A DNA stretch of 64,000 nt from Nageia nagi (lineage: Eukaryota > Plantae > Pinophyta). The notes below the pieces were generated by a model, which saw nothing but the letters and a program-made list of their open reading frames with translations, searched no databases and had not been told where the DNA came from. The position numbers and the translations under genes were made by a program. The stretch spans positions 27,714,001 through 27,778,000 of the forward strand of contig JBITNC010000001.1 of the NCBI GenBank assembly GCA_050084985.1, read 5' to 3'. The stretch's first letter is position 1, and each line of letters begins with the position of its first letter. This document shows, piece after piece, positions 4,001 to 55,052 of this stretch.

Positions 4001-7000
4001 AGTGAATTGGCATAAACTATAATGCTACCCGTCAAATTAGGATGCCACCTTTTTAAGGCCCTTTAAAGCTATGAACCACCCTTGCTAATCGATTTGGCCA
4101 TTAAAGATGCACAAATGCCATCTTATAAAGATTTCTTTGAAGGAAGTAAGCACATTTTGAATCGGCTAAAATGACACCGAGTTGGCCCAAAACAAGCATC
4201 AAAGTCAGAAAGAGTTTGACATCAGTGATTGGATTTTCTCGAAGTTGCAGCCCAATGAACAAAGGTTGATAAGCAAAAAAGGAATAGAGAAACTTGGACT
4301 TGAATATATGGATCTTACAAGATATTGGCATGTGTGAAACTGGTTGCATACACTATTGAGCTAGAAAGAGGAGTTCAAATACACAATACATTTCAAGTCT
4401 GACATTGAAAAAGAGTCAAAACTTCTACTGTGTTGCCACCCCTGATGATGAAGGCCGTATTGATTCTAGAATGCATTTTGGTACCTAATAGAAGGAACTT
4501 CCTTTAGAAGATGCAACATGACAAAATCGAAAAATTCTGCAACATTTCAACATTGCAATTACTTTGAGAGCAAAGCGATTTGAGGAAGAAGGGACTGTTA
4601 TGATTCTCAATTGTAGTACCCTTCTTAACTTGCCCAGATTTGCCACCAATACCTGAGTCTTAGATCCAAGACTAGATGTTGTCCTACTCCATCACAAGAG
4701 ATTTTTTGAACCACTGCTACTCCTAATAATCAAGAAAATCAAAGAGTTGATAAGCGTTGGAGCATCATATGGGAAACAAATTGCTGCTGAAGCCTGTGGC
4801 ACTTGCCTAAAAGATGAGCTGACAGGAAGAGAGTGAAGTAGACTATGGCAATCTAATAGAATAGACAGTGATGAATATCAATGTTTCACCCACCAATACA
4901 TTAAGATAATGCCCAAGGATATTAATAGGTTTACACACATCTCCAATGAATTGTTACAAGTGACTATGTCATACTGGTGGACGAATCTTGTAGTTCTGAA
5001 GTATCCAGCTACAATACAAGAGAACCAACGATGAAGGGCTCTACTCTTTTTCCACCTGACTCTTTCATCTTAAAGATCATTGATTTCCCTTCTCCGACCA
5101 TCCTGTACAATTGGAAGGAAGTGCATTAGCAATTCCCCTCCTCGGATTAGGATATATGGTCGGTTTGTGACCCCTAGATGCCAAAGGCATCCTTGGGGCG
5201 ATCTCGTAGTTACTACGGGGAGATAATGGGGTCGGTTCATGGCATGGCTTTTCCTTCTGCCACATTTTGATCAAAGGGTTTAAAGGAGATAGTGCATCAA
5301 GTTGTTAGCAAGGGCCAACTTGATCCTCTTCCCAAGGATCCAAAGGATGGGGCCCTAGGAGAGTCATTGACTCTAACTATCATCCATGTACAACCCATAC
5401 TAGATCTAAGCAACTACCAACCCTACCTTCTCTATGCCCTTGAGGAGCGCATCTCAACGTAGAGTTTTTCAATAATTTGGACTCAGACAACCATGGGTTG
5501 CCCAAAGTATCTTGATTACAAAAAATTGTGCTAGGACTTGTGAGCATTAATGCTTTGATATTGTCATGAAAGAGCAAAGTTTGAAGATACATGGCTGACA
5601 ATCCCATAGTATACAAATTATCCGAATAAACGCGTATTTATCATTTATTCCCGTTTAAACATCGTATTCTTCTTAAAAAATATTCTTCTTTGTGTTTTCC
5701 CCCCTTTTTTCCCTTTTTTTAATTTGGCCTGGAGCTATTTTTTACCAAACCCGAATTTGTATACACTAGTCTATAAGGACATTGACTCCTTTGAAAAAAA
5801 TTTAATATGGTGAAATTGCCAAAGTATAAAGAAGTTGCACAACCTACAATATGGTCCATCAATGTAACATGTGCAAGTAATTCGCCTTGCAATTTGAATT
5901 CCTCCCATACAAAAACAATCCATAGAAATGGGATTTGTCCACTTTTACAAAGAAGGTAGAAATAGAAATAGAAATATTATTAATGTCCTCGGGTGACCAA
6001 AATAGGTCAATGGGACTCAAAAAGTACAATCTACTTAAATGTAGGAAATGTTGGGGTGAAAAACCCCAAAAACCAATAAAACAAAAGCAAAAAGCACTAA
6101 AGCTACGCTACATTACATCGAGAAACAAAAAAAAAAACCAACATCCTCAATCATCAAATGTAGACCCGATCACTCTAGGTACAAAGGGCCCCGAACTGGA
6201 AGGGCTAAGCAAGGCTCACGAGTCTCTCTCAACATCTAAGACCAAAGGATCACCCATGGAGGAAAAGAATTCAATGATGTACATCTATCGTCCGAGCTGT
6301 GACTATCTAGTAGCGGTCTGAGGGCAAGATAGCATCGTGTCGATCTGAGCTTGTGAGATGCGGAAGAGTACCATTTGGAGGGTGTTTCCTATTCGTGGGA
6401 CTCGAGGTAGGCTGGAAGAAAGAACTAATCAACATGCTGGTTTGAGGGGCTTTCATGAATCTTTGTAAGGATACTTGCCTGAGAAGAGTAATCTCACACA
6501 CGAAGAGTGCTAGACATCTCTGGTCAGGGTAGCGAAAGAAGGTGGATACTGATCCCTAAGACTCTGAATAAGCTGTAATATCACCCTCGGATCTCATAGT
6601 AGATGGGACATCTGAAGATTAGGTGCTCCTTGTTCTCTATCTCCTGTAGAGAACAAAGTTGGCAAGTCCTATCTGTAGAAGAAACAAATGCTATATACAC
6701 TCTCCTTTCATAAAATTTCTTTTCTCATGGATACTGGAAATTGTGATTCAAAACAACCTCTAAAGTGCCACCATTGATTATCTATAATGTGGGGAGCTGA
6801 AAGACCACGTAGCCCAAAATACAGTTTCTCCACATTGTTCCAGAACAAAACCTCAATTCTATCCAGAACATTACAAGAATATGGAACTCAATTCCTAGAC
6901 CTCTGAGCACGATGGTATGACCATGCACTATTGACCGAAGTACTTCTTCATAGAATTAAGAAAATATATATAGGCTGATATAGCCTTACAATAGTGTGAG

Positions 7001-10000
7001 AGAAATCCTCTCCAAATCAACTAAAAATTGAAATATGTTATACGTGAACAAGTCTACCTAGAGAATAGTAAGAAAGGTTTATCTAATCCTAATTCCTAGG
7101 CATAGTCACATTTGACCATGTGTTTATTAATAATCACTATCTAATATATTACAAACTATATATTAGATATTAATCTAACATTCTCCCCCTTAAAGATGAG
7201 AGGGCTGACCAAGCAATCTCTCAACTTTAAAAATTGAGCTTTGGCAATGCCTTTAGTGAAGATATCTGCAATGTTGTCCAGAGTACTGCAATGCTTTAGC
7301 TCAACCACTTTCTTGTCCACCATGTCTCGAATGAAATGATATTTCATGTCAAAGTGCTTTGATCTTTTATGGTGGATTGGATTGTATGCCAACTGGATGG
7401 CACTCATGTTGTCACTGTATAGGATGGTAGGATCATTCTGTTGTTCACCAATCTCTTCAAGTATCTTTCGTAGCCATAAGACTTGGGTACTAGCATGTGT
7501 CACTGCTATGTATTCAGCCTCAGTAGATGATAGAGCTACAACTGTCTGCTTCTTTGAACACCAAGAAATAAGCCCTAACCCAAGACTGAAACAATTTCCT
7601 AAAGTAGACTTTCTATCATCAATGTTACTTCCCCAATCACTGTCACTGAAACCAACCAACTTTGCAACATCTGTTTTGTAGTAGTGAATCCCATAATCCA
7701 CTGTACCTTTTACATACCTCAAGATTCTCTTAGCTGCTTGTAGATGAAGTTCTGATGGATCAGCCATATACCTTGAAACTAGGGAAACTGCATACTGAAT
7801 ATCTGGCCTTGTATTGGTGAGAAACATTAGACTTCCAACTATACTTCTGTAATTTGTCTTGTCAACTTTTGATGCTCCATCTTCTTTGCATAATTGAATC
7901 CCATGTCCTATCGGAGTTGCAACTGGTGTGCACTTCTCCATAGCAAACTTCTTGAGCATGTCCTGAGCATACTTAAGTTGACAAATGAAAATCTCATTCT
8001 CCTTTTGATGTATTTCCATGCCTAGGAAATAATGCATCAAGCCTAGATCTGTCATCTCGAATTCTTGCATCATAGAATTCTGGAAATCCTTATTCAGTTT
8101 GTTACTACTACCCATGAATATAAGATCATCCACATACAAACACACAATTAGGATATCTTTACCTTTGTTCATGTAGTAGAGTGTCAGTTCAATTTTGCTC
8201 CTAGTGAAACCGTATTTAGTGAAGTAGCCATCAATGCGAGAGTACCATGCCCTTGGAGCCTGTTTCAAACCATATAATGACTTCTTCAACTTGTAGACAA
8301 GGTTCTCCTTACCTTGTTCTACAAATCCTTGAGGTTGGTTCACATAAACCTCCTCATTCAAATATCCATTCAGAAATGCACTCTTAACATCCATATGCTG
8401 GATGTTCCATCCTTTATGAGCAACCAATGAGAGTGCTAATCTGCTGGTCTCTTGTCGAGCGACAGGAGCAAATGTTTCCTCATAGTCAAATCCATACTTT
8501 TGAGTAAAACCTTTTGCTACTAGTCTTGCTTTGTGTTTATCAATGCTTCCATCAGGTTTGAGTTTAGTCTTATAGACCCATTTGCAACCAACACATTTCT
8601 TGCCTTGTGGAAGCTCAACTAGCTCCCATATGTCGTTCTTGTTGATGGAGTTGATTTCTGCCTGCATAGCTTCCTGCCATATATCAGACTCACATGGCTG
8701 GACTTGAGATGTATTTTCATGATGAGATCCATCATCAGTATACAACTTTTGATGACCCCAGACTCCCCCTTCATCGAAAATCACATCTCGAGAAATCACA
8801 ACCTTATTTGTGTGGGGATTATAGAGTCTATAGGCTTTTGTAGACTCACAGTATCCAAGGAAAATGCAAGCTTGACTTTTGGGATCAAGTTTTTGTCTTT
8901 TCTCATCTGGAATATGTGCATATGCAAGACAACCAAAAACACAAAAATGTTTGACATTTGGTTTCTTGCCATACCATCCCTCATAGGGAGTGATGCCATC
9001 TAAGCTGAAAGTAGGACACCGATTCAGAATGTACACACTGGTTCTGACAGCTTCAACCCAATACATATTACTGAGCCTTTTTGACTGTAGCATGGATCTG
9101 GTCATTTCAATAATGGTGCGATTTTTCCTTTCAGCCACACCATTTTGTTGAGGAGTGTAAGAAGCGGTATATTGCCTTTTTATCCCAACATCCTTACAAA
9201 ATTGTAGAAATTCCTTCGAGCAAAATTCTCCTCCATTATCAGTTCTTAGGCATTTAACAAGAAAACCACTTTGTTTTTCTGAATCATTCTTGAAATCTTG
9301 AAAACATGCAAATGCTTGATCCTTAGTCTGCAAAAAGTAGACCCAACATAGTCTGGTGAAATCATCAATAAATGTAAGAAAGTACCGATGATTACCCCAA
9401 CTTTCGATTTGCATCGACCCACAAATGTCTGAATGGACCAACTGTAATGGATAACTGGCTCGCCATGCTTCATCTTTTGGAAACTTTGTACGTGCGTGCT
9501 TTCCCAAAGCACATCCTTCGCATACCTCCTCCTTCGGAGCTTGAACTTTTGGTAGTCCACAGACCATATTTTGTGAAGTTAACAACTTCAAACTGTCAAA
9601 GTTGAGATGACCATATCGCAAATGCCAAAGTACACTTGGATTCTCAATGGTTACATTAGCAAGTTGGGCATTATCATGTTCCCCAAATTTCAGAGGAAAT
9701 AATCTATTCTTGGTCATAGATACAGTAGTAACAACTCTATTACCATTATTTTTATCAGAAATGACACAAGCGCCATCTTCAAAAACAAGTTTATAATTTT
9801 TTTCCATCATTTGTCCTACACTAAGCAAATTATGCTTGAGATGTGGAGTGTAATAGATGTCATGTACCTTTTTGATGCCTTCCTTGGTTGGTACCTCCAT
9901 GGCGCCCATGCCTGCAACTTGAAGCTCTTTGTCATCGCCCAATCTGATGTGTGACTTATAAGAGGAATCTACCTTGGAAAATAGTTCCTTCTTCCCAATC

Positions 10001-13000
10001 ATATGATTTGAGCAACCCGTATCCAAAATCCAAGTTGTATTGAGATTTTGATGTGATTGGTCATAGGTGAGAAACAAATTTGAAGATGAGGCTGCTTCCT
10101 CTTCTCCATAATTTGCATTGGATTTCCCTTCATTGGATGCTTTCAGTCGGCATTCTCAAGCATAGTGACCAAGTTTGTGACAATAATGACATTCTTTGTT
10201 AGATTTGTCACCTCCTCTTCCTCTGAATGATTGTCCTCCTCAGTTACCACTTTGATTACCACCTGCTCCTTGGCCAGGTGCTTGGGATCCTCCCCCTCGA
10301 GATTGACCACCTCCACGGGATCTACATCCTCTGCCTCGTTTCTTACCTCTGCCTTGACCTCGTCCTTGGGTTGAAAAAGCTTTATCCTCACCCCCAAAGG
10401 GTGAAGGATCTTCCAGTCGTTCCTCATGAGATGTCAAGGAACCGATTAGTGCATCAAAAGTGAGGGTAGAAAGATCTTTCGACTCCTCAATGATGATTGC
10501 AATATGGTTCCATTTTCGAGGAAGTGTTCTCAACACTTTCTTCACAACAACTTCCGGCTTCACTTCCTCACCAAGTGTTTCCATTTGGTCAACAATTGCT
10601 TTGACTCGAACACAATAGTCACCAACTGCCTCATCCTCTTTCATTCTCAGATTTTCAAATTCCCTTTTGAACATCTGAAGTCTCACTTGTTTTACTTGTG
10701 CGTTACCTTGATAAGCATCTTTTAATGCTTTCCATGCTTGAAGAGCAATCGTACATGAAGCAATCCTAGAAAACAAGTTTTCTGCCAAGGCTGATTGAAT
10801 ATGTGATAGGGCTAACGAGTCCTTTTTCTGATCCTTCTTTTGCTTTTCTTGCAGCTTCGTTCAAGACAGACCAATCAACAGGCTCAATGTAGCCCGTGTT
10901 TACAATATTCCATAGTCCCTTTCCAATGAGTAATGTCTTCATCCGAATTGACCAATACTCATATTTTGTACCATTAAACTCCGGAATGGGCAAAGAATTA
11001 TTAACACTAATCATTGTGTTAAAATAAAATTTTATTTATAGCTTTTGATGATGCTAAAATAAACAATAAATAGATATTATAGACAAATCATGCACTATAT
11101 CTCCCAGGGTACACTATAACCAAAGTTATCACCTTCAGAGGATTGATCTTCTCTATCAGCTACGTTCGGAATCTCCTCGTCACTATCTCTAACAATGATA
11201 GTTTCCGGCAGTTGAGGAGCAGGAGTATAGTCGTCACTATCATTGATAATAATCAACTCAGGTTCCACTAGTGCTGGAACAAACACTTCCACAGATTCAG
11301 ATTGTGCAATGCTTATGGGTTCCTCAGGAACGTAGTCTGGATCCTCAGTGTCGTTTGGAGTATAACCACTATCAAATGAATCTTCTTCTTCTGTGTCTCC
11401 CTCGTAACCCTCGTTGACAGTTTGGCACTGGATTACGTATTGTTTGATAGTTTCAAAAGCTGTATCAATACCATACACTCGAACTTCCTCGTCAAACAAT
11501 TCTGGAGATGCGTTGTCTACAAGATATTTTAATGCAGCAAAACACCCATTAGCTCTTATCATGTCGTGACAGCACTGCAGGCTTCTCTTCCTCAACACGT
11601 CCTCTCCAGGCTCAAACCATCACATTTTTTGAGTGATAGATTTCCACAAACAGTGACAACAGCCTGACCAACCAGATCAATTCAAATTACACATCAGTAC
11701 GTCCTCCAAATAATTGAACAGTAGGAGTAGATACCCAAACGTCTTTTCAGCACAGACGTCTTCTCCTTTGAGCTCCTCTCACCACGAGGTCTACAAATTC
11801 TTTTACAACCATGAACAACCTTAAACAACAGCAGTCGTTAGGCCTTCACTCGGACGTGGATCAGCTACCCTTCATGTCGTTTACAGCGTAACCATCTCTA
11901 CACGGAGTTTAACCTACATGGGGCTTTCCCTTTAGCCTCTTCTCACAGCGTGCGACTCCGGAATGGGTAGACTGTTATTATTGGAAGCCATTGATTGAAG
12001 AAGTAGGCTGTCTCCTCCTCACAACTACAATAAATACAGTAATCACAACAACAGAAAGATCGTTCTTCACAGCCGACATTCAAAATTTGTTAGAATCAGC
12101 ACTTCACGTCCTTCACATCCTTAGCACGTACGTGGGATCCTCCCTTCTACAGTGCACTTCCCTTTGTAGCCGCAACACGTCTCGTGCAGATTTCAACTTG
12201 AACACGTCTTCTTTACGTTTCACATAATGCACGAACATCAACATGGAAGTCAAGCAGTTGTATTTGTAGATCAATTCATCATTCCACGTCAGGCCTCAAC
12301 TGCAGGTTGAACGGTGTCTTCACTGCAGAAGTCTATGCATGTCTGACAGTTGGGAGCCTTTTCCTCACAAGGTTTCTCCTCTACACGTCAACAAAATTGC
12401 CAAGGGCAACACTTTACACCAAGGGATCTATTCACGTTACCAAGCAAGGTCTGAAATGGTTCAGATCTCTTCCTCTGGTGCAACAGATCATAGCAGATCT
12501 ACTTCTCAGTCTTTCCCAGCAGAGAAGCAATACCTTATTACTTCCCTCCACAAGACTATTCTCTGAAAACTATTGCTCAGGTTTATAATTCCTAGCAATG
12601 ATCTACACCTTAAAGCTCTGATACCATATTGACCGAAGTACTTCTTCATAGAATTAAGAAAATATATATAGGTTGATATAGCCTTACAATAGTGTGAGAG
12701 AAATCCTCTCCAAATCAACTAAAAATTGAAATATGCTATACGTGAACAAGTCTACCTAGAGAATAGTAAGAAAGGTTTATCTAATCCTAATTCCTAGGCA
12801 TAGTCACATTTGACCATGTGTTTATTAATAATCACTATCTAATATATTACAAACTATATATTAGATATTAATCTAACATGCCAACATCCTTTCCCAAAGA
12901 ATATGGTTGGAGAACTATTACTATTCAAAGACATGCACATATATGCCCAAGACAGATGTGAATATTAGTAAATCTTGTGTAGTGCTATATGTTAAAGTAT

Positions 13001-16000
13001 TACAAGACACAGTTTCTCAGCTTAGTACTTTAGCCAAAATATATGAAGCATGCGCAGCCAGGTGCATGTAAAATCAAAACTCCATTTCATTGATTTAACG
13101 ATGGTGATAGGCTTTCCAGAAAAATCCATAAGAATTTATTATTTAACACCAACACATGCCTCTGACAGCCTCAGGACAATTATAATGACTTTGTATTATG
13201 TGCAAATATAGATTAGCATCTGCTTGCAATTATAAATATTAATTCCTGGCATGAAACATGCTTTTAAACTTGCATCTACTTGAGCAAAGTTGCACAAGAT
13301 GCATGCCTTACCCCAAACAGATCATCCCCATCCACTGAATATTCCTACTATCATGGAAAGGCATCAGTGACATCACCTACTGTCAACGGATCATCCGGGT
13401 TCGCTGAACGTCCCTAATAACATGGGAAGACATCAGTGGCATCCCCTAGTGTCCCCAATACGAGGGCCAAGATCTCAGCCATCGCTGGGACACCAAGGAT
13501 GTTTCCAAGGAGGACTGTGCCCAGCAATCCCTCCCACCCCCCAAACCCTAAAAAACATTAGGCATATTCACATTATAACATATGGATTTTAATTTCAGAG
13601 TTGGAAATTATAATTCAGATTTGGAACAGTATATTTTATGTTTAACATGTTTGGTATTGGACTTCATTTTCTGTTGAGATACGATTACAAATTTACATGA
13701 AATAGATTGAGATAGGTAATAATATATTGCTTTTTCTAATTTCATGTCTTCAGTTTTTATATGTATTTATGCTTGAATGCATGGCAAAAACTAGATTTCT
13801 AATTTATTATATTTTTTGTATTTCATGTGTCTTTTTATATCCCTCTGACGTTCCATCCGCTAAACCCTAAAAAACATTAGGTATATTGACATTACAACAT
13901 AGGAAGTTCAATTTTGGAGTTGGAAATTATAATTCAGATTTTAAAGAGTCGATTTGATGCTCCTTATGTTTTGTATTGGATGTCATTTTCAATTGAGATA
14001 TGATTATATGTCTTATTAATTTTGATAACTCGGTTTGCACTTATTCATTTTATGAATCACTTTCAGGCAAGAATTACAGACCCAGCAAAAATGATAGATG
14101 TTATCCCCAGAAATCCTCATCCCCAATACTCTGTATAATTCTGCAATTACATCAGTTTTTCCAGCGAACATGGATGTTAGGCAATGACATTCTCGAACCT
14201 AACTTTCCTTTATCAAAATAAGTGTTGTACTGTATTTTATTTTCAGAAATGTGAAGTAATTATACAAAGAAAATTCAACATAAAACTAAATAAGAAACAA
14301 TTGATATCGTATGCTCATTAATTATAAAGTCTCCATATGATTATAACAAATAGCGGAAACTATAAACATGGTATTTGTGCTTTCTAAGGTGATTCATTAC
14401 CTCTATCATGTGAGTGACGCCTGACACAGTCACATACTCTAGTTTTGGAAGTTTTAGCTGCTTTTGAAATGCAGGAAGAAAGTAATCTAATTTCCGCTCA
14501 GCTGCATGAACTGCTGCACGACACTTTGCAACCTATTCAAATGCATCAATTGTTAATTATCGTTGGCACACATAAGCATATTTCTAACATGTTAGAAGGC
14601 ACATGATGTGATAAATAAATTCATACCTCAGGAAATTTATCGCCTGCGCAATTGAAAAGATTGTTTTTATCCCCCTGGGTTGCAGCATCCTTGTTTAGAG
14701 CAGATAGAAGTATTGTAGCATTCTCAATAACAACAGAGGATGATGCTGTCACAAAAAGTCGTCTCAATAAGTGTGATCTAACACCTTCATGGTGCCCTTG
14801 GGAATGATGATTTTCTTCCTTATCAACAGAAACCAGCTTCTGAAGTTGTTTAGCAGCATTAAGCAATGAATGAATCACAGTGAAGAACTGAAACAATACA
14901 TCACTTCTGTTAATTAATAAAGCATCTTTTGCTTCAAACATATTTATAAAGGTCTAAGAAACACAGAATTCCAATCTTTTCCCCATTTCATGCTTGTAAG
15001 TTGTAACAGGCCATGAATGTCCAAGGCACATCACATATAGAGAATACTTGGCATCTATGTATAGTAACAAGATCTTTAACAGTATATTACCTCAGCTGGT
15101 GTAGCTGTTCGATGAAAACTTCTGGTTATCCCACGCTCAACATCAGGCATCTTTGCCAATAAGGCCAAAACAGAAACAAGTAACCCCTGGGATCCACCTT
15201 CTTCTATCCGTCCACGACTAGCTGCACCAGCAATTCCACCTCCTTTACCACTACCTGGAAATGTACCCTCAATCTGTGGGGCTCCAGAACTGCCCATTGA
15301 TTCTGCAATTTCTGAAACGGCTTCAAGACGAGCTAAGATCATGCTTCTGTCACACAGTGGATGAGTTACCTGCAATCCATAGAAATTGTCATAAGATCTT
15401 AAGCACAAAAATAGGGTAAGGAAGGAAATTTCTAGCATATGGTCATTGATTTCAAGAAAGATGATAAAAGTAGTAGTCAAGAGCAGTAAATAGATTATAC
15501 AACCATTAACTATATTAGAAAAATACTCTAACTTGTCAATAACCAAAGCAAAGTCTGAAAACGTACGAGCATACCCAATGTTTAAGTAATCTCAATCCAA
15601 AAGAAGTATGTGTATGGTTCATCAGCGACAGCAATGATCCATTTCCCGAGCCATCAGCATTATTTCTCAGTATCTATTCAAAATACAGTAAGTCCATTTT
15701 CAATAACTTAAGAATGATGGACCCATGGATCTAAAGAAGTTTCTAACAAAGAAAAGCTTAAGAATTGGGTCACCTTATTTCAAGATGTTTAACCAAATTG
15801 TTGCAATAATGAGTGGTGTAAGATCATACCAAAATCCATGTTAAACAATTAAGATTTGTGTCAACATTTTCTTTGAAGAAAATTGTTTCTATAAGACCAG
15901 ATTACTACCTTAATGAAAATAATTTAAAAAACTGAAGCCATTATATTAAGCAGTTCTCTTAGAGTGCTTGCTTCATACACGTGCTCGACTTTAATGAATC

Positions 16001-19000
16001 ACTTTACATACTAGCTGAACTTTCAAGCTATAAAAGAAGCTATGTCGTAATCAATTATCTGTAACAGCATTTCAAAAAAAAGCGAGACCATTCAGCGTTA
16101 TAGTGGGTCTATAATGTACACTATTTTATAGCACACTAAGCACTGTGAGAATGAGGACATCTACCTCTAGCTGATGCACTGTGTTGGATGAAAGAGACAT
16201 CTCATTTTTGCTGGCAAACGGGCGGAATGAGGCACCCAAGCCCAAAACTCTTTCCAATTTAAATTGTTTAAGATAACGCAATGTCAGGGCCAGTGCTTGA
16301 ATAACTAAATCAGCCATGGTCATTATAACCTGCATGTTGCAAATCCATCATTAAGCAGAAGTAAACAAAATTCACTCAGTTGCAATTTGATGTATAAGAT
16401 CTAGCTTGGGTAAGTTGATATGGATGTCAAATGCAACATGTTCAATCCAAGAGTGTCAAGAAACAGGTGCTTATGATGCTGATCTTAAGATGCATATAGT
16501 CAACTCATTTCCTATGTTTTATGTAATGTCAAGTTTGACAACACACCCATCATCCTTGCAGAAGTTCTGATATCAAAATGCTGGTATTTTCTACTTAAAC
16601 TACTTTATCATAAAATTTGAATAACCGTTTGATGTAACAGACTCAATGTTTAAGAGGCGTTAGCAAAATTCCGATGGAATCTGAAAACTATACATATCCA
16701 AAATGGATATTAGAACACTATATCAATTTGATTTTAAACCATATTCAGCCATAGATAAAAAAACACTCGCCTTAAAATTAAACCAAGTATACCTCTATCC
16801 CTTGGTCAACTCTCCCTCCCTTCTTTTTGTCATCTTTTGATGTTGATGTTTCCTCAGTTATACTTTCATAGAAAGACATCACTTCAGCAAGTGCTCCACC
16901 ATCTTTGAAACAGTCACGTGAAGAACACTCCATGCGAACATTTGATGCTTGTCCGCAAACTCAAGAAGCAGCTAAACAATAATGATTTCAACACCATAAG
17001 ATTGTTTCAACATGATCTATGATTCACCAAACAAATACCCATTGCCTTTCTGTCCTATTTGAGTATAATGCATGTTTATCTTGTTCAGTACAATAAACCA
17101 GAATAGAGACATGAAAACATGGAAACAAAACATTATCCAAATTCCAAAAGTTGTGATGACATAGAAACAAAACAGTAGCCTCAGATTATGCACATCAACA
17201 TCAAGATATGCAAGAATGACAAAACGGACTGGAATTAGAGTACTACAATACTAAAAAGTGTCTTAAAGAGCATCACAGTAACAGTAACATCAGAGAATTT
17301 TGTCAATAGTTGACTGCAAAAAACAGTTAATAGTTTGTTTAAAAATACAAAACATGTGTTACAAAATTAGAAAGAGCTTAAACACAAGACTGAGCTTTGG
17401 AGAGGCTTAAGCACTTGATAAAGCAGAATAACACTCGCTTCATGAATTTACCATCTGTAAAGTGATATAAATTAAGTCTCTAATTTAGTTCATATCAACC
17501 ACGCAAGATGTAAAGGAGCAGGCAAGGTTGTAACTTCATGTTCCATGCAATGCTATTAGCTATATAATTGTCCATAGAGATTATAAATGTATATAAATAA
17601 GACACACTATTGTTGCCACATCTTTAGCTAGATTACAAATAATACAAATATAATGTAGATTAAATCAAATATGCAGCAGGAGATAACAAATAACAAGAAC
17701 ATAATGTTGATCAAATCATATGTACCATTCAAAGCAAACGCAAACACTATATACCAATTCTCACTTGCTAAATTATGGCACACCCATTGCAATTGCTGCT
17801 GAAGAATAGATTATAAAAGAATGACAAAAAGATATAGCATTCCAATGGAGGAGATAACAAATAATAAAAATTAAAAATATAATTTAGATCAAATCAAATA
17901 TGCACCAGGAGATAACAAAAAACAAAAACGCAATGTAGATCAAATCAAATACTTACCATGCATAGGAAACACAAACACTATATACTAATTCTCACTTGCT
18001 AAATTATGGTGCAGTCAAAGCAATTGCTTCTAAAGGATAAAGATATTGCTTCAAGAGCTTAAGACAAAAGACGCAAGAAAACAACTATCTTGTTGTAGGT
18101 AATATTCAATTGAACTAAACACATAGAAACATATAGCCATGCCCTAGAAGTACGTCTAACGTGCAATACTCAATGAGACAAATCAACTTCCCTTTCTAAG
18201 TTTTAATAAACTTGAATCAATGGTTTCAGTTGCCTACTAATGCCATCGTGGCCTTCATTTTTGCTAAACATACTACTATTCTTTGCTTACGGTTTAAGAG
18301 AGTTCCCAAGTCTATCCCACAACTTCATTCACTTTCAAATGTACACTACAGATAACATTTTTGCACTTCTGTATGCATTCTGGAATAATCTCCAATCAAA
18401 GCTTCTTCTGCTTAATTTAGCAGTGAAGAAAATCCAAATTCTTATGTGTTTAACCTATTATTCATCGGTTCATGTGGTTCTCTTCTATATGCATAATTCA
18501 TCTATAAGTTGAATGAAATCTTTGAATTGAAAAAACATTTTAAGTAAGAATGTGTTGGGGTGTTGTTCTTTCCACTTATGAAGACCACCTGAGTGATAAC
18601 TGGGAAAAGACATCCAACATGTGAATGAGATTGCATTACTAACCTCTGCTTGAAAGGACTGGTTACCTTAAAGTTTCTAGCATCATAAGAGGTTTTAGGT
18701 AACTATAACAGTAGCTATACTTGGAATACTCAATGGGAGAATAGAGATAGCAACGGTTAACCACGTTTGCATTGGGCATTAGAGTTGTTCTACACCGATT
18801 GAAAGTATAGACTTTTGATGGTAAAGAAAGTAAAATAACAAAAGAAAAGCAAGGAAAAGTGTAAAATGGAGATGATGGCACACAAGAGGGGTACATTCAA
18901 TGACAAGCCCACCGATGAACCAAGGTTAGATCTCCTTCCTACTGGGTTTACTATGAAGTGTGACCCTCACTTATCCCACCTTGCTACAAATGACTAAGTC

Positions 19001-22000
19001 CAAATTGTAAACAAATAGGAGCCTATAGCAATATTACGAGGGAACAACAACAAGAGTAGCACATCAAGCCAAACGACATGGCAAGAATTTCACCAACATT
19101 CATTCATCTTCATGCAAAAGAGTAAGTAATGTTCATCATATAGCAATGACACAACTTCAGAAGATATTCAACCATCTTTCTAACAAGCCTACACTTGCGA
19201 GAAATGTACACAAGTCACATAACAACAATAAAAAAACATTAAGTACAAACACTCAAGTCCACAATCCCATAAAATGAAACAAGTCTCGATTTGATTAATT
19301 CATGCACAACATTCGCTTAAAGAGTCACAATGTTCTAAAACAAAATTGCAATAGTTTTCCCTCTTGGGAAAATGATCATCCTTCTTCCAAGTGAGCCCTT
19401 TAGGGCTACTTATAGTTTTTGCAAAAAAAACCCTAACCCTAATGCAAATTCAAATGAAATTCATCTAAATTAACCCTAATTAACAACGGTCCAATAAAAA
19501 CATGTCACATGGCACTAAAAGATTAAATCCAACACTTGTGGGAGCAAATCCTCATCCATCACAAGGCTTTAACAAAAATATATAAAATTTGGCGTCCAAA
19601 ATAGATAAATTATGCATAAAATAAAATTAGAAATATTGCATCCAAAATGCAACGCTTTCCATCAACTGGTGCCCATGAGTTCATATGTTCCTTTCACCTC
19701 TGCAACACTTGACTCGAAAACTTCACCATTCGCTTGTTGAATATGCCCCTGTTCTCGAATGGTCACCCTATTTTGGGGAGTGTATGACTTTGGAAGGGTG
19801 TTCTCTTCTTCAGGGTTTGATTCCTTGTGGCTCTCCTCTAGTTCCTTGATTCGTTCTACCCCATTGGTTTTGATCTTTGCCAATTTCCATCTCTTGGGTG
19901 TGAACTTCTAAGTTTTGAGGTTTCTCTGGATTCCTGTTTAGGAAGACCTTGGTGACAAACAATGTGTTATTGACCTTGAAGTTGAATTTACTCACATAAT
20001 GAGTTTTGATGGACTCATCTTGTACCCTTTGGCTTGGATCTTCATGGATATGTGCCTTAGAGGATGGATGTGGTTTTCTAGGCAATATGGCACAAAATTT
20101 GAGGTCAGCTATCTTCAAGGGGCAGGCACAGGTGTTTCAAGGGTCAAAGTAGGTGTCATGCCTTGATCTTACCCTTGGAAGCTTGGCGCAGGTGTTAAGT
20201 TGGTCATAATGCTTGTCTTGGTCATGGAATGCACTCAAGATGTGACTTCATGGCTAGCACAAGTTTTCAGGAGGACAAGGTATGTGTCTTGATTGGGACA
20301 TGCACCTGGGAGCCTAGCACAGGTATCATGGAGGTCATGAAGTTTGTCTCTTGTGGCTCTTGCACCAAGGAGGAGAAATGTGAGTCCAATACATGTGTTA
20401 AGAAGATCACCCTTATTGTCTTGTCTGGAGTTTGCGCCAAAGGAGAAATATACAAGCTTAGTGCAAGGTTCCCTAGGGTCAAGGATGGTGTCTGGGAATG
20501 GATTTGCACTCAAGGAGGAAGAATAAAATTTGCGCAGGTTTCCATGGGGACAAGGGTCGTGTCTTAGTTGCGACATGCGCTTAGAAGTTTGGCGCAAGTT
20601 TGAGGAGAGTCAAGATGGTTGTCCTGCTTGATGAGGTTTGCACCAAGGATGAGGTATAGGTGTCTAGCGCAAGTCTTGCCAAAGTCAAGGTGTTTCTCTT
20701 AGTCTAAACTTGCAACTGAAAGGAGTATAGACCTGGTGCAAACCCTCTGGGAGTCAACAATAATGTCTTGGTATGGATTTGCACAAAAAAAAGGGATATG
20801 CCTTTAACTTGTGATTTTTTCTCTTTCGGGAACTTCATGGTAATGGGAAAGGGTCTCCTAGGCTGGTGCATGTCTTCAAGAGGTCAAGGCAGGTGTCTAC
20901 ATCCACACTTGTGCCAAGATGGAGTATTGGCCATGCACAAGCCCCTTGGAAGAAAAACTTGTCCATTTAAGTCTAAATTTGTACCTCATGAGTGAAAATA
21001 AGCCTAGTGCAAGTCTAGAAGGGGTCAACATACTTGTTTTGGCTTGCTCTTGCGCTGGAAAAGTGCATTTGAGTTTGGTGCAAGTCTCCTGGAAGTCATG
21101 AAGCTTGTCTCCATTCGAACTTGTACTCAGGCAAGATATGCTCCATACTTAATCAAAATTTGCCTTTGTTGCCCGAAATTATCCCCTGGAGCTCCAAGAA
21201 GGCTGGTGTAGGTCCTTGGAAGGACATGATGTTTGTCACCACACCTGTACCAGAGAAGTATGCATGGTTTGGGCACTCATCCTGGAGGAGACAAGATGCT
21301 TGTCTCATGTCAAACATGCGCTAGTGTAAAGAAGGGGTTTTCATGCCTTAGTACTTAGCCAATTTCCTTCTTTATCACTTATATTCATCATTTCAAGTCT
21401 CTGGAAGGCTAGCGCAATTCTTGGAGGAGACATGAATGTTGTGTCTTTAGGGACATGCGTCTGAATGGGACTTAGCCAAATTTTTGCGTTACATGTTCCA
21501 GAGAGTTACTTTGCCACTCTTCACCTGTTCTAATCTCCGATATCCTCGATCATGAGACACCATTAGCTTGGTCACTCCGCCTAAGCAATTCCTTGTTGCC
21601 AAAATTTGTGGGTCCCCAAATTTGCTAAAATTTGGGGCATGTTGTGGAAGCCACAACAGAATGCATGCAGAAGTGCAACAATGCTAGCAATACTGTACAT
21701 TTGAAAGTGAATGAAGTTATGGGATAAACAAGAACTCTCTTTGAGACATAAGCAAAGAATACTAGTATGTTTAGCAAAAATGAAGGCCATGATGGCATTA
21801 GTAGGCAACTGAAACCATTGATTCAAATTTATTGAAACTTAGAAAGGGAAGTTTAATTATCTTGTTGAGAATTGCACGTTATATGCACTTCTAGGTCATG
21901 GCTATAAGTTTCTATGTTAGTAATTCAATTAAATGGTAACTACAACAAGATATTTGTTCTATTGAATCTTGTCTTAAGCTCTTGAAGAAATAGATTTATC

Positions 22001-25000
22001 TTGTAGCAGCAATTGGTTTGAGTGTGCCATAATTTAACAAGTGAGAATTAGTATATAGTGTTTATGTTTCCTATGCATGGTACATATTTGATTTGATCTA
22101 CATTACATTCTTGTTATTTGTTATCTCCTGGTGCATATTTGATTTGATCTACATTATATTCTTATTATTTGTTATCTCCTCCATCGGCATGCTATACCTT
22201 TTTCTCATTCTTTTATAAACCTATGCTTCAGCACTAATTGCTTTGGATGTGCCATAATTTAGCAAGTGAGAATTGGTATATAGTGTTTCTATTTGTTTTG
22301 CATGGTACATATTTGATTTGATCCGCATTATGTTCTTGTTATTTGTTATCTCCACTGTGTATTTGATTTGATCTGCATTATATTCTTATTATTTGTAAAT
22401 TTGGAGAACAGAGGATCACATATAGCCCATACTTAATACTATTTGTAATATGCGAGTTTACAAATACATGAATTTTATCGGATCTTATACATGGACAGAA
22501 ACTAAAATCCTTGCTATCTACTACTGCTTTAACATGAAGTTGTTTCTTACCTTCCCAAGAAGTTTTAATAGGCATGCATTAACCTGATTATAGACTGATT
22601 GTTGCAGATTTAAACAAATGACATCATATTTGACCACATTTGACTGCTGTTGTCAGAAAAAAAGGCCCAGACTGCAGGCAGAATACAAAAGTGTAAAACA
22701 AACGATTCTTATAATCTTCAATCTCAAATGCTTTACGGGACAAACTGCCACTATCGTACCTAATGTAAGTGAAAACCTATAAAACATTTAAGTGCCATGT
22801 CTAGATTTCCCTCATGTGGTACAGATTTTATAATTTTCCTATTCAATGTATGTATTCAATGACTCTTATCATAACAAACATTACAATTGCATACTATTAC
22901 ATATCTACTATACCTTCGAAGGGTAAAAAATTTAGGGACTGATGCTTTGAGAAGTAAAAGAAATTTGCATTTATTTATGACAGCCTCCACAAGGTGTTGA
23001 TACCAAAAAGTACTTATATCTGAATTCTCAACTCAAAGTAGAATTCAACATATGCTGCAACTATTCCTAAATGCAAGAGACAATGAACTGAAGTACAAGT
23101 TGAAGGACAACGACCCCAAACACTATGCACATTACCTGCTAGGGAAATCCAAGTAAGAGTTTTTAAGTTAAGCTGTGATCTCGCTACTAAGGCAAGTCCA
23201 GGTCTAGCTGGTACTGATGACATAATTATGACGGGGCAATTCAATAGCCTTCTATGCAATAGATGTAAGCCACAATAATAAAAAAGGCAGAAGTGAAGCT
23301 AGCTAGTTAGAAAATCACGAGGATCATTTGATGTTGAACTCTGAGTGAGGCAGTAGTAGTTGGTCGAAGGACATCAGGAGGATCATCTGATGTTGTAGTG
23401 TGACAGGGTAATACTGGAACAGCACATTAGCAGTTGTGGCTAACGGCTTTAGGAATGTCCATCATTTCAATCAACTCTATTTGAATTAATAAATGTAATC
23501 CATGCAAAACTACAACAAAGGATAATATAATTTAGCATAGAAATGGGAGAAAAAAAAGCCAGTTTGTAAAATTTCAATGTTTACAAGCACAACTGCATCT
23601 GCAAATTATCCATACCTTTTCGGTAGGTTGCAGCAACGGTTTACCCAGAAGCAACTCCGCAGGAGAGACATTCAAGAGGCACGATTCAAGCTCCGCCCTT
23701 GTAACCGTGTCCTTGAACTGTCCGTACATAACATCTCCAGTGGAGGTTTCCACCGCGATGACACCAATCACTGTATCACAACTCCCGCTAGAAGTTGCAG
23801 CAAAATCTTCTTCCTCGGACACGTTATTCCTCGCCTTCTTTGGACTTCTACCCATGAAAGGCTGCTCCACAACACACATAAGATAGCTATTAATCCTACA
23901 ACTATCATCCATCTCACCTCCCCCCAAATCCTCAGCTGCCTCAAATGTTGCCTTTGTATACAATGCCGACAGACTTCTGCTAAAAGGCCCTTGCTTATTG
24001 GTCCCCTGTGATTTAATCGCAGCAGTCTCAGTCTGTCTCACCACACCCACCTTGTAACCTTCCTCGACCAACCTCCTCACATGGACATGCAACCTGAATG
24101 TGGGTATACTTGCAGTCAAAAAATGGTGATCATAGTGGGCGAAAATCCCCAAAACCCTTGCAGCAACTTCTGCATCATCCCCAAAAAACCTATATTTGTA
24201 ACCCACCTCAACCATCAACAACACATCCTTGTACTTGGCCTTGAGCTCCACCACCTGTTCTTCCAATGGAGTATATTTCTCCTTGCCAAGTGAAGGCTTC
24301 CCTGACTCTTGAAGGCTGCCATTCTCATCAACCCTCGCTAGTAGTTTGTCCACGAACTTTTTGTGAAGGGATGGATCAAATGAAGGGAACGCAAGTGCTT
24401 TTTTTATCTCAAACCCCTTCTTCAATCCTATGTCATTTCTGTTTTTTATTGGTAAATCCCCACCAAAATGTTGCAGGGATTCTATATCGTTCTCAATTCT
24501 CTTTTTTGTTGTCAATTCCCCCCATTTTTTTCTGGGTTTTCCGCGTCATCGCACCCAAAACTCCCATTGATTTCCCTAACTTCACAATTGAAGCTTTCCA
24601 TGGTTTTTGGAAATCCACCATCTATTTTTTCAGGGTTATCGTCATCATCATACCCAAAACTCTCATTCATATCTCCCACTTCTGGGCTTCTGAATTTCGT
24701 TGCTTTTGGCAATCCTCCAACCAGTTTTTCTGTCTTTCCCATCTCAACATGCCCACTTTTCTCACCCCCCTTAATTTTTTGAACTCCCACATTAAGTGTA
24801 GCCCTCCTCTTGCTAAGTGGATCTTGTTCGCTAGAGTTATGTGCATTGAATTGTTCGTGATTTCTCTTCTTAGATGTTGTGGGTGTCAATGAAAGTCTAG
24901 CTTCAATGGATGGAAAGGAGGATGAGGGGGCATCCACCTTGATTGGGGCTTTACTTAAAGGAGAAACTGAATCTGAACCTGAACCTTCTTTTGATTTAGG

Positions 25001-25036
25001 GGCAAAAAACCTGGATATGACTTGTTGCTTCTTCAT
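945..25036 (-). CDS. MSH3: DNA mismatch repair protein MSH3 (MutS-beta subunit), 5' part; 10 exons in window, continues beyond the left edge; two apparent 1-nt frameshifts
   Basis: N-terminal PIP-box QQVISRFF; MutS domain [34 protein letters not shown] with the MSH3-type GYKY; Walker [10 protein letters not shown]. All exons I traced have GT-AG boundaries in phase 0. Confidence 0.95.
1198..1269 (-). CDS. MSH3: MSH3 exon 9
   Basis: TAG|GGC...CCA|GTAAG, 72 nt, [24 protein letters not shown]. Confidence 0.92.
1431..1691 (-). CDS. MSH3: MSH3 exon 8
   Basis: CAG|GTG...CAG|GT, 261 nt, [28 protein letters not shown]...[15 protein letters not shown]. Confidence 0.92.
2958..3081. repeat. 62-bp tandem duplication
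   Basis: atctcatagggcaaaacc...catttgttgtc at 2958-3019 and 3020-3081, one mismatch. Confidence 0.9.
2958..4600 (+). mobile_element. Degenerate Ty3/gypsy fragment (end of RNase H, integrase, PPT)
   Basis: Broken frames give GHVSFFRI..., [32 protein letters not shown] and [16 protein letters not shown]; purine tract gaggaagaaggg before TGTTATG at ~4596. Confidence 0.8.
5990..6928 (-). mobile_element. Probable degenerate LINE 3' portion that the copia element inserted into (seems to resume at 12879-13000)
   Basis: Weak resemblance to LINE RT C-terminal (W.ERN..IF-like) sequence near 6720; the gtgaccaa...gtcaatgggact motif also occurs at 95-120. Recognised by eye only. Confidence 0.35.
6929..7180 (-). 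repeat. 3' LTR (TG...TA termini)
   Basis: Direct repeat of 12627-12878, adjacent to the PPT. Confidence 0.95.
7156..10077 (-). CDS. Copia pol (protease, integrase, RT, RNase H), open for 973 aa
   Basis: [10 protein letters not shown] (protease); WHLRYGH...CEGC and [23 protein letters not shown] (integrase); CLYVDDL (RT); FSDSDWG...SSTEAEY...ADIFTK (RNase H). Confidence 0.95.
10078..11014 (-). pseudogene. Copia gag, disrupted by one frameshift (~10835) and two in-frame TGA
   Basis: [33 protein letters not shown]-rich linker, zinc knuckle [13 protein letters not shown] in frame with pol; both TGAs fit CGA>TGA. Confidence 0.9.
11095..11625 (-). CDS. Accessory ORF of unknown function upstream of gag inside the copia element
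   Basis: 167 aa open from GTG 11598. In-frame ATG-TGA at 11625 (possibly ATG-CGA originally). Cys/His-rich N-part; acidic C-part with [16 protein letters not shown] and IIVRDSDEE. Confidence 0.6.
11597..12437. promoter_or_regulatory. Array of 14 ACGT cores (7 CACGTC/GACGTG) in the copia leader
   Basis: ACGT at 11597, 11699, 11739, 11756, 11854, 12106, 12126, 12130, 12177, 12204, 12215, 12286, 12385 and 12434. Function is inferred, not shown. Confidence 0.6.
12627..12878 (-). repeat. 5' LTR (TG...TA termini)
   Basis: Direct repeat of 6929-7180, adjacent to the PBS. Confidence 0.95.
13543..14005. repeat. Diverged ~150-bp direct repeat (copies start at 13543 and 13862)
   Basis: aaaccctaaaaaacattagg.atatt.acatta...gagttggaaattataattcagattt occurs twice. 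Confidence 0.75.
14401..14532 (-). CDS. MSH3: MSH3 exon 7
   Basis: TAG|GTT...GAG|GTAAT, 132 nt, [16 protein letters not shown]...[14 protein letters not shown]. Confidence 0.9.
14627..14887 (-). CDS. MSH3: MSH3 exon 6
   Basis: CAG|TTC...GAG|GTATG, 261 nt, FFTVIHSLL...DKFPE. Confidence 0.9.
15091..15369 (-). CDS. MSH3: MSH3 exon 5
   Basis: CAG|GTA...GAG|GTAAT, 279 nt, [21 protein letters not shown]...[19 protein letters not shown]. Confidence 0.9.
15575..15673 (-). CDS. MSH3: MSH3 exon 4
   Basis: TAG|ATA...TGG|GTATG, 99 nt, [33 protein letters not shown]. Confidence 0.9.
16165..16329 (-). CDS. MSH3: MSH3 exon 3
   Basis: CAG|GTT...GAG|GTAG, 165 nt, [23 protein letters not shown]...QLE. Confidence 0.9.
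16793..16971 (-). CDS. MSH3: MSH3 exon 2 (179 nt, one base short of frame)
   Basis: Acceptor TTTAG|CTG and donor GAG|GT. Reads LLLEFA, then continues [30 protein letters not shown] only after a -1 shift at ~16953. Confidence 0.85.
17633..22398. repeat. Long inverted repeat / foldback-like element: arms 17633-18381 and 21659-22398, with internal tandem subrepeats
   Basis: For example aatcaatggtttcagttgcctactaatgccatc (~18215) is the reverse complement of gatggcattagtaggcaactgaaaccattgatt (~21791). Similarity runs along both arms. Confidence 0.92.
18553..21658 (-). mobile_element. 3.1-kb solo LTR
   Basis: TGTTG...CAACA termini, perfect 5-bp TSD GAATG (18548-18552 and 21659-21663), no coding domains; strand inferred from a TATA-like site at ~19410. 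Confidence 0.88.
23616..25036 (-). CDS. MSH3: MSH3 exon 1 (PIP box, mismatch-binding domain I, start of connector); frameshift within 24515-24545
   Basis: ORFs 24512..25036 and 23574..24515 overlap in different frames; donor AAG|GTATG at 23616/23615. Confidence 0.9.
24533..24730 (-). repeat. Two in-frame 99-bp (33-aa) tandem repeats in MSH3 exon 1
   Basis: [33 protein letters not shown] / [33 protein letters not shown], then a partial EKNGG. Confidence 0.85.
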
Positions 25037-26349
25037 GAATTATGATGTTAGTGTGTATGCAATTTCGTTTCTGTAATGTAGTTTTCTCTACTGTCAACGC
25101 ACTAGGCTAATAACTAGGCCTTCCCTAAGTAAGAATTTTTTCATCTAACTGGATGAATGATATACTCTGGATTTTTTTCGGCTGCTTCTAAAGCAATTCA
25201 CGTACTCCCACTATCAGAAATCAAAAGGACTAATCTGTATTTGCGGTTGTGTATTTGGAGGGAACGGTGGACGGACTTCAGGAGGTGCAAATCCTTGTAG
25301 GATGATATAAAATATTATGTATTATATATTGTGCCTAATATTTACTTCATATACTAAATATACATTCTCTTCAAATATATACCTTGAGGAATTAAATAAT
25401 TTAATTTAATTGGATTGTATTAGTTTTATTTCTATTTTGAAACCACTGTAAAATAGATTTTGCATCGCAGCTGGATTAAGTATATCTTCAATATATGAGA
25501 GAGGAGAGATTGAAACTTGACTCTTTTTTTCTATTTAAGAATTTTAACTTATCCATTATTTTCGGACTTTTTTTCATATGATAAGACTAATTGTATTATA
25601 TGAAAGATATGATGAAAATATTTTTGAAATGTTGGAGTGATTTATGTGAATAAACAAATAAATTATTTCAAATAATATAATTAAATAATATTACTTTTAA
25701 GAAATGAATAATGGAAGAAGTGCATATTTAAGAAAAAAAGACTTTTGAGGTTGAGAATAACATATTCTCAATTTTAAGAGAGAGAATAAAAGAAATCATG
25801 AGTTTTAATGATGAAGACATACCATCATGAGTCTTAATGATGAAGACATACCATAAACCCAAATGTTAGAACTAGGAAATGATGAGGAAGTGAAAACTCT
25901 AGAGAAAGAAGAAAACAAAGCATAAGAAGAAGATAATACATGAACTAAGGAAGAAGAGGAAGAAAATGGAAAAAATGAAGAAGAAGAAGAAGAAGAAGAG
26001 ATAGAACAAGTTAACAAAGAAGACCTCGTCAAGCTGCAAATTGAACAAAAGGGAGATGATTCACAACAAGAACATCAAAAAAATATCGACCTACAAATGA
26101 AACCAAAAGAAAGAGAGTGAACACCAATATATGACAAAAAGTCAATAATAACATAGAAATACTATTACATTAAAGCATAACTCTCAGAAAAGGATCTGAA
26201 TGGAGAATTAAACAAAATATAAAAAATGGGATAAAGCTTTGAACAAATAGGGAAAGAGATCTTGAACTAGAAAATGGGTTTACACCTGCAAAAAACATGC
26301 AAAATCAAAGAAAAAATTGAAACTTATATAAATGATACATAGTGCTTCA

Positions 26350-54884: not shown

Positions 54885-55052
54885 TGGAGTGGTTAAAAAG
54901 GTTCTACCTTCTCCATGATTCCCATATGTTGGAGTGGTTAAAAAGGTTTGCCCTTCTCCATCATTGCCAAGCCTTGGAGTGTTTAAAAAGGTTCATCATT
55001 CTCCATGATTATTGAATGTTGAAGTGGTTAAAAAGGTTTGTCCTTCTTCCAT
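54885..55052. repeat. ~45-bp tandem repeat x4
   Basis: tggagtggttaaaaaggtt....ttctccat units. Confidence 0.85.

What the first reader, a model, noticed from the sequence alone, without database searches (positions are those of the whole stretch)
11015..12614. Young copia element with an accessory gene and an oriented motif array in its leader: candidate TE-encoded anti-silencing or host-interaction module
Seen: the PBS and gag are 1.6 kb apart. The gap holds a sense ORF (at least 167 aa, 11598-11095) and an oriented GACGTG array, and the ORF is bracketed by two copies of the gag start. Established: copia elements normally encode only gag-pol, and known extra ORFs such as the SIRE env-like ORF lie 3' of pol. 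Arabidopsis VANDAL DNA transposons pair an accessory protein (VANC) with arrays of short cognate motifs to remove silencing. Inference: this may be a comparable protein-plus-binding-array system in an LTR retrotransposon. I see no sequence homology to VANC.
Basis: partly seen in the sequence, partly recalled or inferred. Interest (0 to 1): 0.85.

Follow-up and report, generated by a model that had tools for sequence, protein, structure and literature searches.

The report
Copia retrotransposon with extra upstream gene
A plant jumping gene of the copia type carries an extra, conserved 155-amino-acid acidic gene in front of its normal genes, which likely acts by binding host proteins rather than DNA, while the nearby repeated DNA motif appears limited to a minority of related copies and so likely is not this protein's partner.

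Summary
The anatomy is confirmed. A copia element (minus strand, 252-nt LTRs, 2 mismatches) sits in an intron of MSH3, with PBS and gag 1.6 kb apart. The extra ORF is 155 aa (ATG 11562), not 167. Five of six relatives (82-29% identity) start at the same Met, and differences between copies lean synonymous. It has two predicted helices and an acidic tail with SUMO-interacting-like motifs; no Pfam, PDB or fold match was found. GACGTG occurs 6 times (0.5 expected). The VANC-like pairing is not supported. In four DNA runs the segment holding the array and the upstream gag start has 0-2% of the ORF's contig depth, so the ORF looks family-wide and this array does not. The protein (39 D/E, 6 K/R) has no DNA-binding features, and GACGTG is a known host bZIP site. 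The upstream gag start looks like a relic of a sister element. This copy's gag-pol is broken. Verdict: a new variant, namely a copia family with a 5' accessory gene that likely acts through protein contacts; expression is unshown. The scan earlier noted another copia with an upstream ORF on other DNA (unchecked note).

The parts
12627..12878 (-). 5' LTR, 252 nt, TG...TA ends
   Evidence: direct repeat with 6929-7180, 2 mismatches; the one extra matching base at 12879/7181 is flank
12615..12626 (-). Primer binding site of the tRNA-Met type
   Evidence: sequence; the tRNA assignment is recalled and agrees with most copia groups in PMC6317226 section 10
12528..12611 (-). Candidate splice donors at 12608 and 12533 (inferred)
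   Evidence: motif scan; the 12533 site differs in most X7/X8 contig depth; no spliced contig seen
11570..12390 (-). Variable mid-leader with the GACGTG/ACGT cluster (six GACGTG), CpG-rich; a minority variant in the family
   Evidence: CpG o/e 0.73 versus 0.31 in gag-pol, P = 3e-5; depth 0-2% of the ORF's; one X2 contig joins 11690 to 12488
12025..12052 (-). T-rich acceptor-like site in front of the upstream gag start (inferred)
11955..11991 (-). Upstream copy of the gag start (12 gag-like codons, stop after 19 codons); likely relic of a sister element
   Evidence: contigs in X7 and X8 join 10987 to 11969, and loose ends at 10991 in X2, X3 and X8 carry a similar start
11095..11562 (-). Accessory ORF, 155 aa: helical N-terminal domain (residues 1-52) and acidic disordered tail
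11230..11256 (-). SIM-like motif 1 (residues 103-111), aligned with similar motifs in P0001-P0004
   Evidence: consensus from PMC8616421
11173..11199 (-). SIM-like motif 2 (residues 122-130)
11054..11081 (-). T-rich acceptor-like site 40 nt before the gag ATG (inferred); an AATAAA/TATA-like stretch follows at 11040
10156..11014 (-). gag, broken in this copy (frameshift near 10833, stops at 10242 and near 10158)
   Evidence: (DUF4219, Retrotran_gag_2)
7156..10155 (-). pol in copia order (protease, integrase, reverse transcriptase, then an RNase H-like end), about 300 nt short between integrase and RT relative to other copies
   Evidence: Pol_BBD, gag_pre-integrs, rve, SH3_retrovirus, RVT_2; X5 record 25, X1 joint at 8696; the RNase H label is recalled, with no Pfam row
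7181..7191 (-). Polypurine tract
6929..7180 (-). 3' LTR
   Evidence: X1 record 1 begins exactly at 6929

Best explanation
This is a high-copy plant copia family that carries a conserved 155-aa accessory gene between PBS and gag, whose product likely works as an acidic, SUMO-interacting adaptor or decoy on host chromatin proteins rather than by binding DNA, while the GACGTG cluster is likely a host bZIP-type enhancer in a swappable leader segment carried by a minority of copies. Shown: the ORF, its start Met shared with distant relatives, its presence at family-level depth, a synonymous bias, the acidic tail with SIM-consensus matches, and the low depth of the array segment. Inferred: that the protein is made; that the SIM-like motifs bind SUMO and so dampen SUMO-dependent silencing or recruit co-activators (about 0.3 on its own); that gag-pol is reached by splicing from a donor near the PBS to the acceptor at 11054, leaving the ORF to unspliced or internally promoted RNA; and that the upstream gag start with its own acceptor came in by template switching with a sister element.
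For: Relatives at 82, 80 and 62% and 41, 40 and 29%; 5 of 6 begin at the same Met, and M1, G6, C7, D24, E25 are invariant in 6 of 6 N-termini. No longer protein scored, so no host parent was found (weak). The ORF region has median summed depth 201, 163, 1053 and 1196 in X2, X3, X7 and X8, against 3.8, 0, 2.9 and 6.8 for the mid-leader. X1 record 5 (10481-11480) carries ORF and gag on one contig. Of the 21 listed differences inside the ORF, 11 are synonymous against 25-33% expected (P = 0.006-0.056), and at CpG sites 6 of 6 listed changes are the synonymous one of the two possible. The protein has 39 D/E and 6 K/R and no transmembrane-level stretch. SIM-like motifs occur in 6 of 7 proteins and exceed tail shuffles in P0001 (P = 0.0006), P0007 (0.007) and P0002 (0.035). 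GACGTG is a HY5/bZIP site (PMC4055456 passage). Each gag start has a T-rich AG 35-40 nt upstream. The two starts are closer as protein (10/12) than as DNA (26/38), as expected for two coding lineages. There are 17 ATGs before the ORF and 22 before gag, so plain scanning is unlikely.
Against: No expression is shown: no holder is on record as RNA, and the RNA-guess contigs showed no leader joint among the listed rows. The synonymous test uses only the best-supported rows that the tool printed (21 ORF rows of 40 shown, 164 not shown), mixes lesions private to this copy with family variation, and is not a dN/dS. SIM-like motifs are absent in P0005 and not above chance in the window protein (P = 0.057), P0003 or P0004. 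Summed contig depth is no copy number, and majority leaders under 80% alike are unseen and may hold their own motifs. The genomic context of the distant relatives P0004, P0005 and P0007 is unknown (searches found no loci). The fold is low-confidence (pLDDT 54 whole, 69 N-terminus).
Confidence: 0.5

Rival explanations
1. VANC-like system: the ORF product binds the oriented GACGTG array and removes DNA methylation from its own family.
For: The motif is enriched, mostly oriented, non-coding and next to an accessory gene, as for VANC21 (PMC5735166 passages). The segment keeps more CpG than gag-pol of the same copy. A fast-changing leader is also a VANDAL trait.
Against: The array segment is at 0-2% of ORF depth in 4 of 4 runs. 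There are no tandem repeats and no DUF1985/DUF287 or other Pfam hit. The protein is strongly acidic, and even its folded part has 8 D/E against 4 K/R. The motif is a host bZIP site. Copy differences over leader and ORF are mostly C>T and G>A (51 of 70 places in X2), the mark of methylated DNA.
Confidence: 0.1
2. Tax/VP16-like transactivator: the helical N-terminus docks on a host bZIP bound to the ACGT sites and the acidic tail activates transcription, so ORF and motifs work together indirectly (analogy recalled).
For: A small helical domain plus an acidic tail with scattered aromatic residues; bZIP-type sites nearby.
Against: Most copies appear to lack this array; there are no interaction data.
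Confidence: 0.15
3. Passenger: the ORF is a captured fragment of another element or of a host gene that spread with a successful master copy and has no role in transposition.
For: No expression evidence; the distant relatives have unknown context and vary in length from 115 to 159 aa; the synonymous test is small.
Against: The same start Met and open frame are kept down to 29% identity; the bias is synonymous; no longer parent protein was found; the ORF persists at family depth in runs labelled as four organisms while the sequence just upstream turns over.
Confidence: 0.17
4. Particle-side regulator: the protein binds Gag, integrase or the RNA to tune assembly, copy number or target choice, or the ORF acts mainly in cis as a translated spacer that controls gag-pol output.
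For: Its position directly 5' of gag; acidic proteins can mimic nucleic acid (general knowledge).
Against: No test made; SIM-like motifs point to nuclear host partners.
Confidence: 0.08

Closest known systems
5' sense extra ORFs of plant Ty3/gypsy elements (Ogre-type Mtr70 ORF upstream of GAG; rice Retrosat2 ORF0)
   Same: An extra sense ORF of unknown function between the 5' LTR and gag (PMC2533021 and PMC4093653 passages; PMC3485330 listing only).
   Different: Those are gypsy elements with long LTRs and, for Mtr70, a 1527-bp ORF. This is a short-LTR copia with a 155-aa acidic ORF and no Pfam domain.
SIRE (Sirevirus) env-like eORF-3'F
   Same: A copia lineage carrying a family-wide, fast-evolving extra ORF (PMC6317226 section 10).
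   Different: The SIRE ORF lies 3' of pol; here pol runs into the PPT and the ORF is 5' of gag, with no transmembrane-level stretch.
VANDAL/VANC anti-silencing (Hosaka 2017, PMC5735166)
   Same: A TE accessory gene with a nearby dense, mostly oriented short motif in non-coding DNA.
   Different: VANC has DUF1985/DUF287 and binds 8-9-nt family-specific motifs amplified in tandem repeats throughout the family. Here no such domain or tandem repeat was found, the motif is a 6-nt host bZIP site, and the array appears only in a minority of copies.
Retand/Grande accessory ORFs (TRP28, GENE23)
   Same: Conserved accessory genes proposed to act like retroviral regulatory proteins; Grande's has its own promoter (PMC7264820; PMC11963269 passages).
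   Different: They are gypsy, antisense, 3' of pol and predicted to bind DNA.
SIM-bearing chromatin and viral proteins (Daxx, PML; HSV-1 ICP0)
   Same: A hydrophobic core followed by Ser/Asp/Glu, as in the Daxx SIM (PMC8616421 passages); ICP0 is reported to counter intrinsic defence through SUMO-targeted activity (PMC3174244, listing only).
   Different: Motif resemblance only; no homology, no ligase domain, binding untested.

Membership tests
Ty1/copia LTR retrotransposon | Domain order gag-protease-integrase-RT(-RNase H) | tested here: met
   the RNase H end is read by eye (recalled motifs)
Ty1/copia LTR retrotransposon | Two LTRs, PBS and PPT | tested here: met
   ends are TG...TA, not TG...CA
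Ty1/copia LTR retrotransposon | Target-site duplication | tested here: inconclusive
   5-bp flanks match at 3 of 5 positions
Copia lineage (Ivana/Oryco, Ale or Gymco) | RT/RH/INT phylogeny against REXdb | not testable with these tools
   The REXdb files were too large to read; the Ivana-like look of gag and RT motifs is recalled, from no call
SIRE | Extra sense ORF 3' of pol | tested here: not met
   The pol frame ends at 7156 and the PPT is at 7191-7181, leaving no room
VANDAL/VANC system | Protein with DUF1985/DUF287 domains | tested here: not met
   No Pfam family at E <= 1 for the ORF, and none of these among 7 aligned members at E <= 5
VANDAL/VANC system | Short motif dense and oriented in non-coding DNA | tested here: met
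   5 copies in 280 nt, 6 in all; enrichment significant, orientation alone P = 0.06
VANDAL/VANC system | Motifs amplified within tandem repeats | tested here: not met
   No TRF array between 3081 and 22078; self-alignment of the leader halves not significant
VANDAL/VANC system | Motif array typical of the family that carries the gene | tested here: not met
   For this array segment, depth is 0-1.9% of the ORF's in 4 of 4 runs; other arrays in unseen leaders are not excluded
VANDAL/VANC system | Sequence-specific binding and induced demethylation | not testable with these tools
   needs EMSA/ChIP and bisulfite data
SUMO-interacting motif proteins | hXhh/hhXh core flanked by acidic or Ser residues | tested here: met
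   6 of 7 proteins; above shuffles (P < 0.05) in 3 of 7; consensus
SUMO-interacting motif proteins | Binding to SUMO | not testable with these tools
HLH or ankyrin-repeat proteins | Profile or fold match of the N-terminal domain | tested here: inconclusive
   Pfam HLH E = 0.28 in 1 of 6 members; Atlas ankyrin rows 0.88, under the lead threshold; Foldseek and VIA-align nothing significant

The most novel reading that the evidence does not exclude
A plant copia lineage encodes, 5' of gag, a small SUMO-binding anti-silencing protein: a retrotransposon counterpart of viral SIM-bearing counter-defence proteins that works in trans for the whole family, while interchangeable leader cassettes with host transcription-factor arrays are swapped in by recombination.
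Probability: 0.2. Interest if true: 0.82.

Novelty: new variant of a known kind. Interest (0 to 1): 0.48.

Why it matters
Extra ORFs are known in plant LTR retrotransposons, but in copia the described type lies 3' of pol (SIRE), and the main survey counted only ORFs of 250 codons or more (PMC6317226), so a 155-codon 5' gene would have been missed. A conserved, unclassified accessory protein in a high-copy copia family gives a small, testable handle on how LTR elements persist in heavily methylated giant genomes. If it binds SUMO and weakens silencing, it would be a protein-level counter-defence in a plant LTR retrotransposon. The specific VANC-like claim, which drove the first score, is unlikely.

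Tried and rejected
No whole genome is held for this window, so copies could not be collected. Locus searches gave nothing: ORF alignments in metagenome and viral contigs, gag and RT in viral contigs, and a degenerate ORF motif in metagenome and prokaryote genome contigs. A profile search added no relatives beyond the six, and longer proteins gave none (weak by the tool's own note). Pfam, PDB sequence, Atlas, Foldseek (PDB, BFVD) and VIA-align gave no significant match; the best VIA-align Z of 5.9 is a generic helical pair. An HLH-inhibitor (ID-like) or ankyrin reading of helix 1 was considered and left as a weak lead. The homodimer prediction of residues 1-60 gave no verdict (score 0.20, mark 0.32). 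No RNA holder was listed. A tandem duplication of the whole leader was tested and was not significant (21 of 300 and 60 of 500 shuffles). No second ORF remnant lies in the window. A TATA reading of 11040 as the gag promoter was rejected as too close to the ATG (inference). PMC2443393 (passages) gave no support for a leader-enhancer precedent, so that parallel is not claimed. Literature searches listed no paper on a copia family with a conserved sense ORF 5' of gag. The library is open-access only, and Additional files 1 and 3 of PMC6317226, which may list copia 5' ORFs, could not be read.

Full report
Setting. The window is plant DNA holding an MSH3 mismatch-repair gene on the minus strand (MutS_III hit on one exon; exon-like frames at 24512-25039, 23574-24545, 15076-15591, 14621-14953, about 14400-14531 and 1419-1793; the MSH3 name is by eye and recalled). 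The long TE-filled introns and 25-45% GC suggest a gymnosperm, which is untested inference. No whole genome is held.

The element. Two 252-nt LTRs (12878-12627, 7180-6929) differ at 2 positions and end TG...TA. A Met-type PBS follows the 5' LTR and a PPT precedes the 3' LTR. Pfam gives gag, protease, integrase and RT in copia order. The element lies in sense in an intron of about 12.7 kb. The flanking 5-mers match at 3 of 5 positions. This copy is defective: a frameshift near 10833, stops at 10242 and near 10158, and about 300 nt missing near 8700 compared with contigs of other copies.

The ORF. The frame is open for 174 codons (11619-11095), and the first ATG at 11562 gives 155 aa. 0 of 2000 shuffled leaders contain such an ORF. 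Searches found P0001-P0003 at 82, 80 and 62% and P0004, P0005 and P0007 at 41, 40 and 29%, plus a 41-aa fragment P0006. A profile search added none, and none was found among longer proteins. Five of the six aligned relatives begin at the same Met, and five residues are invariant across six N-termini. AlphaFold2 gives two helices (about 2-17 and 25-52) and a disordered tail at low confidence. The protein has 39 D/E and 6 K/R. No family, structure or Atlas match is significant. The tail carries SIM-consensus motifs (definition from passages of PMC8616421) in 6 of 7 proteins. They exceed shuffles in 3 of 7, are borderline in the window protein (P = 0.057) and are absent in P0005.

Family evidence. 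A run search listed 24 runs, 18 holding part of the leader and none on record as RNA. I laid 7 of them in two calls. In the DNA runs X2, X3, X7 and X8 the median summed contig depth is 201, 163, 1053 and 1196 over the ORF and 103, 99, 193 and 429 at the PBS side, but 3.8, 0, 2.9 and 6.8 over 11599-12365. The tool warns that this depth is no copy number, but the contrast is 50-fold or more in 4 of 4 runs. Contigs leave the window sequence at 11567, just above the ATG (X5 record 28; X7 loose end, which encodes the same residues as the front of P0006). One X2 contig joins 11690 to 12488. One X1 contig carries ORF and gag together (10481-11480). So the ORF travels with gag across the family and related organisms, while the leader above it comes in several forms. 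Of 21 listed differences in the ORF, 11 are synonymous against 25-33% expected (P = 0.006-0.056). At CpG sites, where one deamination is silent and the other is not, 6 of 6 listed changes are the silent one. This rests on the rows the tool printed (40 shown, 164 not) and is a hint of purifying selection, not a dN/dS.

The motif. GACGTG occurs 6 times against 0.49 expected and is the most enriched hexamer of the leader (family-wise 0.02); ACGT occurs 17 times against 4.3. Orientation alone is not significant (P = 0.06) and spacing is irregular. There is no tandem repeat. All six lie within 12389-11596, nearly all of it the low-depth segment. GACGTG is the CG-hybrid site bound by the bZIP factor HY5 (one passage of PMC4055456). 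VANC systems, by contrast, use DUF1985/DUF287 proteins and 8-9-nt motifs amplified in tandem repeats and enriched across the family (passages of PMC5735166); VANC is reported as dicot-specific and MAIN-derived (passages of PMC13547354). One of five VANC features was met, three were not, and one is untestable here.

The two gag starts. They share 26 of 38 nt (0 of 500 shuffles) and 10 of 12 residues. Each has a T-rich AG 35-40 nt upstream. Contigs in X7 and X8 join an upstream-type start directly to the gag body (24 letters on the short side, depth 3-4), and loose ends in X2, X3 and X8 show similar starts. The simplest reading is that the upstream copy is the end of a sister element's leader brought in by template switching (inferred). 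The halves of the leader are not detectably duplicates.

How it likely works. With 17 ATGs before the ORF and 22 before gag, this RNA cannot be read by plain scanning. I infer that gag-pol mRNA is spliced from a donor near the PBS (12608) to the acceptor at 11054, and that the ORF is read from unspliced short-leader RNA or from an internal promoter to which the ACGT sites may contribute. No spliced contig was seen. The protein's charge argues against DNA binding and for protein contacts. The best specific lead is SUMO binding through the tail, which would let it act as a decoy or adaptor on silencing machinery. I put the overall reading (real family accessory gene, protein-contact mechanism, array separate) at 0.5 and the SUMO step at about 0.3. 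Rivals are passenger (0.17), Tax-like activator (0.15), VANC-like (0.10) and particle-side regulator (0.08).

Novelty. Extra ORFs 5' of gag are known in gypsy elements (passages of PMC2533021 and PMC4093653). Reviews place most extra ORFs 3' of pol (PMC7264820, parts 1-2 of 3). For copia the survey PMC6317226 names only SIRE's 3' ORF as characteristic and used a 250-codon floor (passages, section 10 and one supplement; its element table could not be read). Four searches listed no copia family with a conserved 5' sense ORF. An unchecked note of this scan describes another copia with an AUG-free leader and a 667-codon upstream ORF; no look-alike of this ORF or leader is indexed. Verdict: new variant of a known kind, interest 0.48.

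Noticed in passing
window 17630-22400: An element of about 4.7 kb with long (about 750 nt) terminal inverted repeats, 83-92% complementary, built of sub-repeats, in another MSH3 intron; looks like a non-autonomous Mutator/foldback-type transposon (label recalled).
   Followed up: no
window 60356-63927 (+): A second, degenerate copia gag-pol with several stops; no PBS found in 57000-60500 and no match to the accessory-ORF profile.
   Followed up: partly
window 12879-12883 and 6924-6928: The LTRs end TG...TA rather than TG...CA, and the target-site flanks differ at 2 of 5 positions although the LTRs are 99% identical.
   Followed up: partly
window 13534-13687 and 13853-14006: A 154-nt direct repeat (81%) just upstream of the element, in the host intron.
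   Followed up: no
window 12433-12438 (-): The AACGTG site here reads as a further GACGTG-type site in X7/X8 contigs, often with the C changed, a small sign that ACGT sites turn over in the shared part of the leader.
   Followed up: no
window 47117-47368, 54885-55057, 58709-58838: Short tandem arrays (12/36-nt, 45-nt and 21-nt units) in intergenic DNA.
   Followed up: no
window 24512-25039 and 23574-24545 (-): The 5' part of MSH3 appears in two overlapping frames, which may be an intron boundary or a frameshift in the assembly.
   Followed up: no
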